A stretch of 64,000 nucleotides of DNA, from IMG/VR virus record IMGVR_UViG_2718218396_000003, one strand, 5' to 3'. This DNA is from a virus. Its lineage: Duplodnaviria; Heunggongvirae; Uroviricota; Caudoviricetes. Below are positions 1 to 6,000 of the stretch, one piece after another. Each line of letters begins with the position of its first letter. The first letter of the stretch is position 1. The position numbers are program-made.

Positions 1-3000
1 TAGACGAAAGTGATCGCACCTACCCGGATATTATCGTGAGGATGCTTCATCGCCATTGCTCCCCAAATACAAAACCAATTTCAGCCAGTGCCTCGTCCAT
101 TTTTTCGATGAACTCCGGCACCATCTCGTCAAAACTCGCCATGTACTTTTCATCCCGCTCAACCACGACATAATGCAGTCCTTCACGCTTCATACGTGGG
201 TCATAGTTGGCAAAGTACCAGGCATCTTTTCGTGTCACCCACATGCTGTACTGCACCTGGGCCATGTAAGCCGACTTTATGGCCTCGAAACCACCGAGCC
301 GGAACTTCATGAAATCCCGGGAGGTAAACGGGCATTTCAGCTCAAGGCCATTGCCGTCACTGCATAAACCATCGGGAGAGCAGGCGGTACGCATACTTTC
401 GTCGCGATAGATGATCGGGGATTCAGTAACATTCACGCCGGAAGTGAACTCAAACAGGGTTCTGGCGTCGTTCTCGTACTGTTTTCCCCAGGCCAGTGCT
501 TTAGCGTTAACTTCCGGAGCCACACCGGTGCAAACCTCGGCAAGCAGGGTGTGGACATTTTCATGTCAGGCCACTTCTTTCCTGAGCGGGGCTTTGCTAT
601 CACGTTGTGAACTTCTGAAGCGGTGATGACGCCGAGCCGTAATTTGTGCCATGCATCATCCCCCTGTTCGACAGCTCTCACGTCGATTCCGGTACGCTGC
701 AGGATAATGTCCGGTGTCATGCAGCCACCTTCTGCTCAGAGGCTTTCTGTTTCAGGAATCCAAGAACTTTCACTGCTTCGGCCTGTGTCAGTTCTGACGA
801 TGCGCGAATGTCGCGGCGAAATATCTGGGAACAGAGCGGCAATAAGTCGTCATCCCATGTTTTATCCAGGGCGATCAGCAGAGTGTTAATCTCCTGCATG
901 GTTTCATCGTTAACCGGAGTGATGTCGCGTTCCGGCTGGCGTTCTGCAGTGTATGCAGTATTTTCGACAATGCGCTCGGCTTCATCCTTGTCATAGATAC
1001 CAGCAAATCCGAAGGCCAGACGGGCACACTGAATCATGGCTTTATGCCGTAACATCCGTTTGGGATGCGACTGCCACGGGCCGGTGATTTCTCTGCCTTC
1101 GCGGGTTTTGAATGGTTCGCGGCGGCATTCATCCATCCACTCGGTAACGCAGATCGGATGATTACGGTCTTTGCGGTAAATCCGGCATGTACAGGATTCA
1201 TTGTCCTGCTCAAAGTCCATGCCATCAAACTGCTGGTTTTCATTGATGATGCGGGACCAGCCATCAACGCCCACCACCGGAACGATGCCGTTCTGCTTAT
1301 CAGGGAAGGCGTAAATTTCTTTCGTCCACGGATTAAGGCCGTACTGGTTGGCGACGATCAACAATGCGATGAACTGCGCATCGCTGGCATCACCTTTAAA
1401 TGCCGTCTGGCGAAGAGTGGTGATCAGTTCCTGTGGGTCGACAGAATCCATGCCGACACGTTCAGCCAGCTTCCCTGCCAGCGTTGCGAGTGCTGTACTC
1501 ATCCGCTTTATACCTCTGAATCAATATCAACCTGGTGGTGAGCAATGGTTTCAACCATGTACCGGATGTGTTCTGCCATGCGCTCCTGAAACTCAACATC
1601 GTCATCAAACGCACGGGTAATGGCTTTTTTGCTGGCCCCGTGGCGTTGCAAATGATCGATGCAGAGTGATTCAAACAGGTGCTGGGGCAGACCTTTTCCC
1701 ATGTCGTCTGCCAGTTCTGCCTCTTTCTCTTCACGGGCGATCTGCTGGTAGTGACGCGTCCAGCTCTGAGCCTCAAGACGATCCTGAATGTAATAAGCGT
1801 TCATGGCTGAACTCCTGAAATAGCTGTGAAAATATCGCCCGCGAAATGCCGGGCTGATTAGGAAAACAGGAAAGGGGGTTAGTGAATGCTTTTGCTTGAT
1901 CTCAGTTTCAGTATTAATATCCATTTTTTATAAGCGTCGACGGCCTCACGAAACATCTTTTCATCGCCAATAAAAGTGGCGATAGTGAATTTAGTCTGGA
2001 TAGCCATAAGTGTTTGATCCATTTTTTGGGACTCCTGGCTGATTAAGTATGTCGATAAGGCGTTTCCATCCGTCACGTAATTTACGGGTGATTCGTTCAA
2101 GTAAAGATTCGGAAGGGCAGCCAGCAACAGGCCACCCTGCAATGGCATATTGCATGGTGTGCTCCTTATTTATACATAACGAAAAACGCCTCGAGTGAAG
2201 CGTTATTGGTATGCGGTAACGCCGCGCTCAGGCGGCTTTGATAGTCATATCATCTGAATCAAATATTCCTGATGTATCGATATCGGTAATTCTTATTCCT
2301 TCGCTACCATCCATTGGAGGCCATCCTTCCTGACCATTTCCATCATTCCAGTCGAACTCACACACAACACCATATGCATTTAAGTCGCTTGAAATTGCTA
2401 TAAGCAGAGCATGTTGCGCCAGCATGATTAATACAGCATTTAATAAAGAGCCGTGTTTATTGAGTCGGTATTCAGAGTCTGACCAGAAATTATTAATCTG
2501 GTGAAGTTTTTCCTCTGTCATTACGTCATGGTCGATTTCAATTTCTATTGATGCTTTCCAGTCGTAATCAATGATGTATTTTTTGATGTTTGACATCTGT
2601 TCATATCCTCACAGATAAAAAATCGCCCTCACATTGGAGGGCAAAGAAGATTTCCAATAATCAGAACAAGTCGGCTCCTGTTTAGTTACGAGCGACATTG
2701 CTCCGTGTATTCACTCGTTGGAATGAATACACAGTGCTGTGTTTATTCTGTTGTTTATGCCAAAAATAAAGGCCACCATCAGGCAGCCTTGTTGTAAATG
2801 TTGCAGGTATCAAGTAAGTAATTAGATGGAGCGCCATAAATTATGAATTCATCGTTTGTCGGGTCCATCTCCATCTCTTGTCCTATTGCCATTCTTGCGT
2901 CAGTGTCGTCAGCGGCGAAGCATAAAACAGCCCACGCACCCATTGTTTTAAAAAGAACTGCAATTGGCTGTGGTTTTACTGAATTTGCGTTAGCGCGAAA

Positions 3001-6000
3001 ATCACAAATCGCACTTTCATGAAATTCCATATATCACCTCAAATAAGTGGTTTGCTGCCTAATTTCATTTTCTGGCGACCAACACAAGTCATCTTGCTGT
3101 CAGTTGTTTGGATTTACGGTAGCCTGCCGCGTAAAGAGCTACATTTGGAAGACAAGTTGAGCCTTCATATTTTCTGGTCAACGTTGTCAGTGTTATTACT
3201 TCTGCTCTCATTGCTGGTTTGCGTTTGCATTGTAAGACCACTCGTGATGGGGTTGGCCTGTGTAGTTTGTCGGAGCTAATCGCCTCCTGACTTTGCAGGT
3301 TTGCGCGACGAGCTCTACGGCGAGAAGCTGCGGTGCCTTTAAATTCTGTTTTTCTGGACATAGATTCCTCCCGAATAAACTTTGGCGATGCAATCTCGAA
3401 GCTCCTCCTGAGACGGTTGCTTCGGCATTGCATCCCACAGCTTATGTGGTTGGGTGATCTGGCTTTTCAGCCACGTAGTCGAGAGTCGACGTTGTTTAAA
3501 GAGCCTGCCAGTCTGTTCCATTTGGCTTCCAGCGTCCTGCTGATGGTTAAATAGTACGATATGTACTTCACTTGGTCAATACAATTTGTTCTAAAACGGG
3601 GCGTTTTTTTACAACGCTTTGTATTTAATAGTATTGTTTTTTAGCGTGGGTGTATTGCCTCGGCGATGTAAGGAGAGATCAGAATTGCGTTGTTTAGTGA
3701 GTTGTATCTATTTATTTTCCAATAAATACAATTGGTTATGTGTTTTTTTGGGCGAGAGGAAAAGAAAACCCGGCATGGAGGCCGGGTTGATGATTAGCGG
3801 TGTGGCCTTGAGCGATAATGCTCACACACATGTTCAAGATTTCCATGCCTTATCCGTTCATAGGCATTCACATGAACTTCTCGATCGAATTGGTCATTCA
3901 AATTGTATGTAGACATCTGTGTTTTCTCATATTGGCGGCAGCCCTACAACCGCTTGAAAAAATGTACCAGACGCGCTAAGGTTACATCGCAAATATTGTG
4001 TACCTTAACAAGGGCTCCTTTTGGAGGCTCTGGTTAAACAGCATCAATGTCGGACTGGGGAGTTGGACATTGTGCTGAATGCTTTTGCATTATTGAGGCC
4101 GAACGTAAACCTTCAGAATTGAAGAGATGCGTTCGGCTTCTTCGTTTGTGATATCGTTAGGAATGCCTTTAATCGTTACTGTAACCCCTGATTCAGGTCG
4201 AAGAACTACTGGAAGATCATAGGTATGAAGTGCATTAGCCTTGCCTTCGACTTTTGTTGGTTCGCCAGTCAAATCTTTTTCCTCACTGGATTCTTTGTCA
4301 ATCGGAGTGTATGGGATTTCTTCACCAGACTGGAAAGCTACAAACTTTTTGATTGCACTTTCCATGCGGCTTTTATATGCAGTAATGCTGCTGTCGCTAG
4401 GCTTCGGCTCAGTTGCGTTGATGTATCGCTCGGCAAGCTCATTCACATCAAGCTGAGTAACATCACCCATTTCCTCTTCTTGGACTACCGTTAAGAGGCG
4501 AGCGGATGAGTTTTTTAAATTTCGAGCGGTGGCCTCCTTCATTATGTTCAGCGACATAAGCTCTTCAAGGAAGTCCTTGAATGCCTGCACGCTAACGTTT
4601 GACTTTGCCATTTGCTCTCTCTCTAAGTTATTGACTCAGATCGAGTTTATCCAGGAATTGATTTGCATGCAAGACTCAAGTCTTGAGAATTTCCGTTCAA
4701 GATCCACTCTCAATAAAAAAGGCCGCACCTCTGCGACCTTTCATCTCCTAAATCTCTTTTCTCTTACCTAAAGAAACAGCAGGCTGGGTCAGCCCTAACA
4801 ACTTCAAGTGCATCGGTCAGAGAAAGCTCCGTGCTATACAGGTGTTATTTCATATCTTTTTGCATCCAATAAATTTTCCATCTGTCCAGAGAGCGGATGC
4901 ACTTGATTCTTGTTGATGGCAGGACGTTTTTTCACCTGCCTCACCCTGCCATACAGGACGCTGCTCACCGATATCTATCGTCCGGTCATTGATGTTATAG
5001 ACAATATCCAGATCATTACGGATATACTCAGATGGCCTTATGCTTTCAATGAATAGATGAACTTCTTTTTGACCGCTTGATACTCATGGCCATTAAACTC
5101 CATCTATCCTCTTTACCCAAACGTCTCTTCAGGCCATTGGCTGGCGATAACTTTCCCCACAACGGAACAACTCTCATTGCATGGGATCATTGGATATTGC
5201 GGGTTTAGTGGTTGTAGAAACACCTGACCGCTATCCCTGATCAGTTTCTTGAAGGTAAATTCATCACCACCAAGTCTGGCTATGCAGAAATCGCCGGGCT
5301 CAACAGCTTGCTCAGGGTCAACCAGAATTAACATCCCGTCAGGAAAACTAGGTTTGGAACCTGTTGGTGCGGTCATTGAGTTACCTTCAACCTCAAGCCA
5401 GAATGCAGAGTCACTGGCTTTTTTGGTTGTGCTTACCAATCTCTCCGCATCACCTTTGGTAAAGGTTCTGAGTTCTGGAGAGAACATCCCAGCCTGAACA
5501 TGAGAAAAAACAGGGTACTCATATTGTTTTTTAACTGGGGCCGATGAGTATTCGCCAACAGGTGAAAATGTCCCGTCGTGGTTGAATGATATGTTATCAA
5601 TACCAAGGTATTTAAACACCACACCAATATCACTAAGAGATGGATGACGAGATCCGCGCAACCAGTGTCCAATTCCACCCTGCGTCATACCTAGCTCTTC
5701 GGCTAACTTCTCTTGAGTTATGCCGAGCTCTTTCATTCTGGATCTAGCCAGTTCATACCATTTCATTTTCATGTCCTTATTATTACGCTCTGTACTGGAA
5801 CCATCCATGCACAATGTGTATTTTTACTTGTATTTGAGAAGTACATATTGTATTTTTTATTCGTGGTTACTATGGAGGGCATATGAGCAACCTACGAAAA
5901 TATCGAGAGTCACTGAATATCTCTCAAACAACACTTGCTAAGGCAGTTGGATGCACACAGGGAGCTATCGGACATTGGGAATCTGGTCGTCGCTTCCCAG

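What the first reader, a model, noticed from the sequence alone, without database searches (positions are those of the whole stretch)
2779..3030. Unknown 83-aa gene in the position of ral (restriction alleviation)
Between the N-like gene and ea10, where lambda carries ral, there is an unrelated Cys-containing 83-aa ORF with a strong GAGGTG ribosome-binding site; only the C-terminal NKAA resembles Ral. Genes in this slot of pL operons are often anti-restriction or anti-defence functions.
Basis: inference. Interest (0 to 1): 0.5.

Follow-up and report, generated by a model that had tools for sequence, protein, structure and literature searches.

The report
Uncharacterised early gene replacing lambda ral
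A real, conserved 83-codon early gene of a Shiga-toxin prophage sits exactly where phage lambda carries its anti-restriction gene ral, but it is unrelated to Ral, showed no anti-restriction effect in a published screen, and its function remains unknown.

Summary
The ORF at 2779-3030 (minus strand) is real. It is 100% identical to ECs1180/ORF21 of Sakai prophage Sp5, H0090 of VT2-Sakai and mEp234_034. It is under strong purifying selection (dN/dS 0.05-0.24) and is annotated "hypothetical" everywhere (PHROG 2471, unknown function).

It is an exact cassette replacement of lambda orf28+ral. Homology to lambda resumes 17 nt inside the 3' end and at the ribosome-binding site and first two codons. 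The "NKAA" shared with Ral is not protein homology. Those codons form the 5' arm of an intrinsic terminator hairpin whose loop holds the stop codon. This hairpin and a 17-nt RBS linker also bound other unrelated cassettes in this slot; the linker precedes at least 19 families.

The protein has no detectable relatives outside a few enterobacterial prophages, and its structure models are of low confidence.

Two published experiments bear on function. The identical protein ("orf60", Silas et al. 2023) is not among the genes reported to give a phenotype, and only Ocr, Ral and ArdA were noted as hits against EcoKI restriction. Its in-frame deletion from Sp5 could not be obtained (Mondal et al. 2016).

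Best guess, at low confidence: an immediate-early accessory protein that binds a host or rival-element factor. It is not Ral-like.

The parts
2779..3030 (-). 83-aa protein-coding gene. Synonyms: ECs1180/ORF21 of Sp5, H0090 of VT2-Sakai, mEp234_034, 'orf60'/UDP0060 of Silas et al., PHROG 2471. The product is acidic (pI 4.2, net charge about -7).
   Evidence: ORF list. 100% identical DNA in VT2-Sakai and many Stx phages. Sakai locus tag. PHROG 2471 at 1.4e-61 over the full length. dN/dS 0.05-0.24 and charge. Identical sequence in the Silas supplement.
3034..3050 (-). Conserved 17-nt linker CCACTTATTTGAGGTGA that carries the Shine-Dalgarno GAGGTG (3035-3040). It is the 5' boundary of the cassette and is shared with lambda orf28 and with many unrelated cassettes.
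   Evidence: Single match in the window against 0.01 expected by chance. Conserved upstream of all diverged homologues. Precedes at least 19 unrelated ORF families in IMG/VR contigs. Homology to lambda 34352-34381.
2759..2790 (-). Intrinsic terminator: 9-bp stem AAGGCUGCC / GGUGGCCUU, loop UGAU, then UAUUUUUGGC. The last codons (K A A) form the 5' arm and the stop codon sits in the loop. It is the 3' boundary of the cassette and is shared with lambda ral.
   Evidence: Terminator scan. Fold of -13.9 kcal/mol with z = -2.5. The hairpin is kept with sequence changes in homologues and in unrelated cassettes. Annotated as a rho-independent terminator in mEp234.
3089..3361 (-). N antiterminator gene (context). 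It lies 58 nt upstream of the target, with no terminator-like site between them.
   Evidence: Pfam N_peptide. VT2-Sakai annotation. Terminator scan.
3465..3579 (-). nutL (about 3465-3505) and the pL promoter (3551-3579), the transcription start region for N and the target (context).
   Evidence: VT2-Sakai features mapped to the window with an offset of -401. Promoter-like TTGACC-17-TACTAT at 3579..3551.
2597..2778 (-). 182-bp spacer to ea10, 98.6% identical to the lambda ral-ea10 spacer. It contains a second terminator-like hairpin at 2623-2644.
   Evidence: blastn against lambda. Terminator scan.

Best explanation
The ORF is a genuine gene for a small, soluble, acidic protein. It forms a self-contained mobile cassette: a shared RBS linker, the ORF, and a terminator with the stop codon in its loop. 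In the pL (early-left) operon it occupies the same slot as lambda orf28-ral. No intrinsic terminator-like site lies between pL and the hairpin at its 3' end. It is therefore predicted to be transcribed together with N on the first, N-independent transcript, which would make it one of the two earliest phage proteins after infection or induction (inferred). It most likely acts stoichiometrically, binding and neutralising a host or rival-element protein as a counter-defence or host-takeover accessory function (inferred from context only). It is not a Ral homologue and probably does not alleviate EcoKI-type restriction. Shown: the gene is real, the cassette boundaries, the lack of homology to Ral, the narrow distribution, and variable neighbours. 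Inferred: immediate-early expression and protein-binding counter-defence. The target of the protein is unknown.
For: Real gene: dN/dS 0.05-0.24, 43 invariant positions across nine full-length members, and 41 once the most divergent member is added. Cassette boundaries against lambda. The linker is reused before at least 19 unrelated families, and the terminator boundary recurs in many of them. The gene is usually the first gene after N, with lambda-type, 933W/H-19B-type and three further arginine-rich N-like sequence types upstream, or it follows another small cassette; downstream genes vary. It never occurs together with ral: 0 overlap between 23 target loci and 49 ral loci. Patchy distribution: 56 of 50,697 phage records and 403 of 5,426 complete E. 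coli genomes. The slot is a top-ranked accessory region, and the only characterised occupant (Ral) is a counter-defence protein. There is no terminator-like site between pL and 2790. Silas et al. counted 0 transmembrane segments, and the charge is acidic.
Against: The identical protein gave no reported counter-defence or conditional-lethal phenotype in the Silas screens, which covered 45 phage-host combinations plus expression alone. No homology or fold match gives any mechanistic handle. Net charge varies from -7 to -3 across members, so a DNA-mimic mechanism is not supported. The failure to delete the gene from an Sp5 lysogen points instead to a role in lysogen viability. Rho-dependent termination between N and the gene cannot be excluded, so immediate-early expression is unproven.
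Confidence: 0.4

Rival explanations
1. Lysogen-viability or lysogeny-maintenance factor. The protein, or the DNA segment, would be needed to keep an Sp5 lysogen alive, for example by damping the effects of leaky pL expression (N, Kil) or by neutralising a host response to the prophage.
For: Mondal et al. 2016 built in-frame deletions of nearly all unknown Sp5 genes. They could not obtain deletions of ORF21 (ECs1180) or ORF23 (ECs1184). [quoted passage not shown]
Against: The step at which construction failed is not reported. Both undeletable ORFs flank pL-N, and their flanks were first cloned in hosts lacking the Sp5 repressor, so toxicity of the construct is a plausible technical cause. The gene lies in the CI-repressed pL operon and no other promoter-like site was found upstream of it. 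Lambda has a 98.6% identical ea10-cIII-kil segment and does without this gene. The gene has no constant neighbour that could be a partner toxin. Expression alone had no reported phenotype. The deletion design, which keeps 9 nt at each end, would also shorten the terminator stem, so a cis effect is confounded with loss of the protein.
Confidence: 0.17
2. Functional analogue of Ral: an unrelated protein that alleviates type I restriction, possibly of a family other than EcoKI.
For: It is an exact positional replacement of orf28-ral and is mutually exclusive with ral. It is predicted to be expressed early. It is acidic like some anti-restriction proteins.
Against: No sequence similarity to Ral. 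In the MG1655/unmodified-lambda screen, all three replicates list only ardA, ral and ocr as hits, and orf60 is not among the genes with phenotypes. The acidity is not conserved across the family. The same slot holds at least 19 unrelated families, including membrane proteins, so position alone does not predict function.
Confidence: 0.06
3. Other early host-takeover or decision function, comparable to Kil, CIII or the exo-xis ORFs. It would modulate host physiology or the lysis-lysogeny decision rather than defence.
For: Its neighbours in the same operon (cIII, kil, ea10) have such roles. The lack of any counter-defence phenotype fits this. The Sp5 deletion problem hints at a regulatory role.
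Against: Hypervariable, freely exchanged cassettes are more typical of arms-race genes. There was no toxicity or fitness effect on expression.
Confidence: 0.2
4. The ORF is incidental, and the segment matters only as RNA or DNA (terminator, spacer).
For: The terminator overlaps the 3' end and is conserved.
Against: dN/dS of 0.05-0.24 with saturated synonymous change, and invariant motifs (KPQPIAVLFK, IYGAP) across genera, show selection on the protein. There is no Rfam match in the segment.
Confidence: 0.02

Closest known systems
Lambda Ral (Pfam PF11058), with the overlapping orf28
   Same: Same slot in the pL operon. Same 5' RBS linker (via orf28). Same 3' terminator hairpin, including the last codons N-K-A-A-stop. 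Small size. Mutually exclusive occurrence.
   Different: No sequence similarity. Ral is basic (pI 8.8) with an N-terminal Cys cluster, whereas this protein is acidic (pI 4.2) with two scattered conserved Cys. In lambda the sieB gene separates N from orf28/ral, whereas here the gene follows N directly. Ral was a hit in the EcoKI screen and this protein was not.
Other occupants of the 'Ral' accessory region of lambdoid phages (Silas et al. 2023)
   Same: Small ORFs of 28-210 aa, behind the same 17-nt linker. Many of them are closed by the same hairpin followed by TTTATTTTTGGCATAAACA. Patchy distribution. All except Ral are of unknown function.
   Different: They are unrelated in sequence. Some are membrane proteins or Cys-rich. 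One gene from a ral-containing region (orf24) triggered cell death in ECOR61, whereas orf60 had no reported phenotype.
T7 Ocr / ArdA (DNA-mimic anti-restriction proteins)
   Same: Small, acidic, and made at the very start of infection. For this gene, early expression is predicted rather than shown.
   Different: No Pfam or PADLOC match. The charge is far lower and is not conserved, ranging from -7 to -3. The predicted structure is mixed alpha/beta rather than an elongated helical mimic, although the models are of low confidence. It was not a hit where Ocr and ArdA were.

Membership tests
Ral (Pfam PF11058, antirestriction protein Ral) | Sequence match to the family profile | tested here: not met
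   No Pfam family at E<=1 for the target or for two diverged members. As a positive control, lambda Ral matches PF11058 at 1.6e-48. BLASTP of the target against Ral finds no alignment at E<=100.
Ral (Pfam PF11058, antirestriction protein Ral) | N-terminal cysteine cluster (C11, C17, C20, C26 in lambda Ral) | tested here: not met
   The target has C9, C37 and C76. Only C37 and C76 are invariant, and there is no CxxC motif.
Ral (Pfam PF11058, antirestriction protein Ral) | Alleviates EcoKI/EcoBI restriction and enhances modification | not testable with these tools
   Published pooled screen of the identical protein: for MG1655 with unmodified lambda, three replicates, the authors note only 'ardA, ral, ocr are hits'. 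orf60 is not in their list of all genes with phenotypes. This is negative but not definitive.
Ral (Pfam PF11058, antirestriction protein Ral) | Location downstream of N in the pL operon | tested here: met
   Exact replacement of lambda orf28-ral. Usually the first gene after N in related loci.
DNA-mimic anti-restriction proteins (Ocr, ArdA) | Dense, conserved negative surface charge and a match to the Ocr or ArdA profiles | tested here: not met
   No Pfam match. Net charge is -7.4 in the E. coli form but -3.2 to -4.4 in other members.
Phage accessory-region gene (sense of Silas et al. 2023) | Small variable gene in a slot bounded by conserved sequence, with many alternative occupants across related phages | tested here: met
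   At least 19 unrelated first-ORF families follow the same linker in 114 viral contigs. The authors chose this very protein from their accessory regions.
PHROG 2471 (unknown function) | Full-length profile match | tested here: met
   E = 1.4e-61, residues 1-83 on profile positions 1-83 of 83.
Antitoxin or antidote of a linked toxic gene | Constant adjacent partner gene | tested here: not met
   Upstream and downstream neighbours differ among 18 loci.

The most novel reading that the evidence does not exclude
ECs1180 could be an immediate-early protein, made with N before antitermination, that the prophage cannot lose without killing its host. It would be an antidote to a host or phage-triggered lethal response, such as an abortive-infection or programmed-death pathway set off by the phage's own early genes. 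That would be a new kind of counter-defence or lysogeny-safeguard protein with a new fold. It would explain both the failed deletion in Sp5 and the silence of the protein when expressed alone.
Probability: 0.12. Interest if true: 0.7.

Novelty: new member of a known kind. Interest (0 to 1): 0.35.

Why it matters
The gene is carried by Stx1- and Stx2-converting phages of E. coli O157:H7 and by about 7% of complete E. coli genomes. It is probably among the first phage products made, yet nothing is known about what it does. The slot it occupies is one of the most variable accessory regions of lambdoid phages, and only one occupant (Ral) has a known role. Resolving why this gene could not be deleted from Sp5, while giving no phenotype when expressed alone, would show whether the slot holds only counter-defence genes or also factors that affect prophage stability and hence Shiga-toxin phage induction. 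The cassette anatomy also gives a concrete, testable picture of how these genes are exchanged: a common RBS linker and a common terminator whose stem can be read as the C-terminal codons of unrelated proteins.

Tried and rejected
- **Profile libraries:** Pfam, NCBIfam and PADLOC gave no family. PHROGs gave only an unknown-function family. The PDB sequence search gave nothing significant.
- **Word-indexed search of 5.8 billion proteins:** 19 clusters, all enterobacterial.
- **Exhaustive profile search of 1.84 billion representatives:** only two full-length clusters plus fragments. Two large hits (P0021, 3126 aa; P0022, 1357 aa) are tandem-repeat proteins whose scores add up many weak repeats, so I rejected them as artefacts.
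- **AlphaFold2, two runs with 9 and 11 sequences:** pLDDT 58-59 and pTM 0.39, with a consistent helix-hairpin-helix-strand(s)-helix order but unreliable packing.
- **Rfam:** nothing in the segment.
- **Literature:** papers mentioning mEp234, HK106 or HK633 said nothing about the gene. The supplements of Silas et al. 2025 and of an anti-defence machine-learning preprint did not contain it.
- **Ideas considered and dropped:**
  - Ral homology through NKAA, which is explained by shared terminator DNA.
  - A DNA mimic, because the charge is not conserved.
  - A zinc finger, because only two Cys are conserved and no His.
  - The plus-strand ORF at 2843-3022, because the substitution pattern fits the minus-strand frame.
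Full report
**What the window is.** The first 6.6 kb of the window is 99.7% identical to the early region of prophage Sp5 of E. 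coli O157:H7 Sakai. The 2600-3500 segment is 100% identical to VT2-Sakai, the Morioka Stx1 and Stx2 phages and many PA-series Stx2a phages. The early-left operon runs on the minus strand in this order:
- pL (3551-3579)
- nutL (about 3465-3505)
- N (3089-3361)
- the ORF in question (2779-3030)
- ea10 (2228-2596)
- cIII, kil, gam, bet, exo

**Checking the observation.** The ORF, its GAGGTG ribosome-binding site 4 nt before the ATG, its cysteines and its NKAA ending are all present as described.

It is a real gene. Full-length homologues at 70-83% identity occur in prophages of Citrobacter, Enterobacter and Klebsiella. Pairwise dN/dS is 0.05-0.24, with synonymous sites near saturation. Across nine full-length members 43 of the 83 positions are invariant, and 41 remain so once the most divergent member is added; they include KP-PIAVLFK, W33, VLCFA and IYGAP.

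The family is very small. There are 19 clusters among 5.8 billion proteins. An exhaustive HMM search of 1.84 billion representatives found only two full-length clusters at the 50% level. The two long hits in that search are repeat-protein artefacts.

The gene is in 56 of 50,697 phage records. These are Stx phages, the siphoviruses HK106, HK633, mEp234, Gally and JEP4, and two Salmonella phages. It is also in 403 of 5,426 complete E. coli genomes. It is annotated as a hypothetical protein wherever the annotation was listed. PHROG 2471 (unknown function) matches over the full length. Pfam, NCBIfam, PADLOC and PDB sequences give nothing.

**Anatomy: an exact cassette swap for lambda orf28-ral.** blastn against lambda shows 98.6% identity from window 2101 to 2795 (lambda 33409-34103). 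That alignment ends 17 nt inside the 3' end of ral, so N-K-A-A-stop is shared DNA. A second match joins window 3025-3055 to lambda 34352-34381, which is the RBS and first two codons of orf28. Everything between these points is unrelated. Ral matches Pfam PF11058 at 1.6e-48 while the target matches nothing, and BLASTP finds no alignment. Ral is basic (pI 8.8) and the target is acidic (pI 4.2).

**Why the C-termini look alike.** The last codons are the 5' arm of an intrinsic terminator. The stem is AAGGCUGCC / GGUGGCCUU, the loop is UGAU and holds the stop codon, and UAUUUUUGG follows. It lies at 2790..2769 on the minus strand and folds at -13.9 kcal/mol. mEp234 annotates the same hairpin as a rho-independent terminator.

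Diverged family members keep a hairpin there with altered sequence, for example CAGGCCGUC/GGCGGCCU and AAGGCCG/CGGCCUU, always with the stop codon in or beside the loop.

In 114 of them with a complete ORF after the linker, that first ORF falls into at least 19 unrelated families:
- orf28, followed by ral: 48 contigs
- a 156-aa family: 26 contigs
- this 83-aa family: 12 contigs
- smaller families of 61, 107, 149, 62, 56 and 210 aa, and others

Many of these cassettes are closed by the same hairpin plus TTTATTTTTGGCATAAACA. In several the reading frame runs into the stem, giving -DKAA, -FEAA or -NKAAK endings. So 'NKAA' marks a shared recombination and terminator boundary. It is not evidence of kinship with Ral. 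All alternative occupants that I checked are also of unknown function.

**Context elsewhere.** In loci recovered through the protein itself, the gene is usually the first gene after N. The upstream N genes include the lambda type and the 933W/H-19B type, plus three further arginine-rich N-like sequence types. Sometimes another small cassette precedes it instead. Downstream genes and recombination modules also differ: Red, Erf, RecT, or Sak4-like plus SSB. So there is no constant partner gene. The gene and ral never co-occur: 0 overlap between 23 and 49 loci. That count is partly forced by sampling on the linker.

**Expression (inferred).** The scan finds no terminator-like site on the minus strand between pL and the hairpin at 2790. 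The 58-nt N-to-ORF spacer has no hairpin or U-run. The first intrinsic stop after pL therefore lies at the end of this gene. This predicts that N and this protein share the N-independent immediate-early transcript. In lambda the sieB gene separates N from orf28/ral. Rho-dependent termination cannot be assessed here.

**Published experiments on this exact protein.**

*Silas et al., bioRxiv 10.1101/2023.04.06.535777.*
- Their Supplementary File 3 lists UDP0060 = AFM76313.1 of mEp234, with a sequence identical to the window ORF. UDP numbers are the orf numbers of the paper.
- Accessory regions named 'Ral' rank 2nd, 11th and 14th among the regions they inspected.
- The 200 genes were expressed from the chromosome in MG1655 and ECOR strains, in pools. 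They were scored alone and under infection in 45 phage-host combinations.
- orf60 is never mentioned in the text. It is absent from the list of 'all AGs that produced phenotypes'.
- For MG1655 challenged with unmodified lambda, all three replicates note 'ardA, ral, ocr are hits'.
- This is a negative result for EcoKI alleviation, within the limits of a pooled screen.

*Mondal et al., Sci Rep 2016 (PMC5155283).*
- The target is ORF21 = ECs1180.
- In a near-complete set of in-frame deletions of Sp5 genes in a K-12 lysogen, only ORF21 and ORF23 (ECs1184, window 4090-4611) could not be deleted. The authors suggest both are needed for stable lysogeny.
- I regard this as unexplained. The step that failed is not given.
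- Both ORFs flank pL-N, and their flanks were first cloned in hosts without the Sp5 repressor. Keeping only 9 nt at each end would also shorten the terminator stem.
- Lambda lacks this gene although its ea10-cIII-kil segment is nearly identical.

**Interpretation.** The anatomy is firmly established: a real gene, an exact swap for orf28-ral, shared linker and terminator boundaries, no relation to Ral, and a hypervariable slot.

The function is not established. My best-supported reading (about 0.4) is an early accessory protein that binds a host or rival-element factor. It rests on the arms-race character of the slot, the predicted immediate-early expression, the patchy distribution and strong purifying selection.

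Rivals:
- another early regulatory or host-takeover role (about 0.2)
- a lysogen-viability factor, as Mondal et al. proposed (about 0.17)
- a Ral-like type I anti-restriction function (about 0.06)
- a non-coding role (about 0.02, contradicted by dN/dS)

**Novelty and score.** The gene is already catalogued as hypothetical, has been chosen as an accessory gene and has been screened. It is therefore a new, uncharacterised member of a known kind of locus rather than a new kind of system. The stop-in-loop terminator boundary that explains the NKAA ending, and the unresolved deletion failure, are the points worth following up. Interest: 0.35.

Noticed in passing
window 4090-4611 (-): A 173-aa ORF between cI and pL (H0093 / ECs1184 / ORF23; PHROG 2602, unknown function; weak matches to the integrase SAM-like domain only). 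It is the second of the two Sp5 genes that Mondal et al. could not delete. It sits where lambda has rexAB.
   Followed up: partly
window ~553 (exo, 47-720, -): A 7-bp deletion relative to Sp5 splits exo into two ORFs (47-523 and 433-720). The exonuclease gene of this prophage therefore looks like a pseudogene.
   Followed up: yes
window 6579-7902 and beyond: Identity to Sp5 stops at 6578, just after cII and inside the ECs1188 homologue. An IS3-family element follows, with orfA at 6689-7015 and orfB at 7012-7902. This suggests an IS insertion between cII and the replication genes.
   Followed up: partly
window 3034-3050 and 2759-2790; loci L012-L131: The early-left accessory slot of lambdoid phages uses standard boundaries. 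A 17-nt RBS linker precedes at least 19 unrelated ORF families. The common terminator hairpin plus TTTATTTTTGGCATAAACA closes many of them, and in several the stem is translated as -KAA or -EAA. Similar hairpin-linker units recur between successive small genes, for example in L005.
   Followed up: partly
window 2110-2168 (-): Rfam match to the lambda cIII thermoregulator element (RF01804, 88.5 bits, E = 9e-22), as expected for the lambda-like cIII leader.
   Followed up: no
window 3089-3433 (-) and 3339-3521 (-): The longest N reading frame is 114 aa, but the annotated N (90 aa) starts at 3361, and the Pfam match covers residues 23-114 of the long form. RefSeq also annotates a 60-aa ORF (ECs_5705) that overlaps the N start and nutL, which is probably spurious.
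   Followed up: no
window 3794-3916 (-) and 3767-3788 (-): A 40-aa ORF (H0092; PHROG 21154, unknown function) is followed by a strong terminator-like hairpin just upstream of the pL operators. VT2-Sakai annotates this hairpin as the terminator of the pRM transcript.
   Followed up: no
P0021, P0022 (profile search output): Two long tandem-repeat proteins (3126 aa with 43 matched stretches; 1357 aa with 12) scored E = 1e-34 and 1e-13 against the family profile. They did so purely by adding up weak repeat matches, which is a caution for reading such searches.
   Followed up: yes
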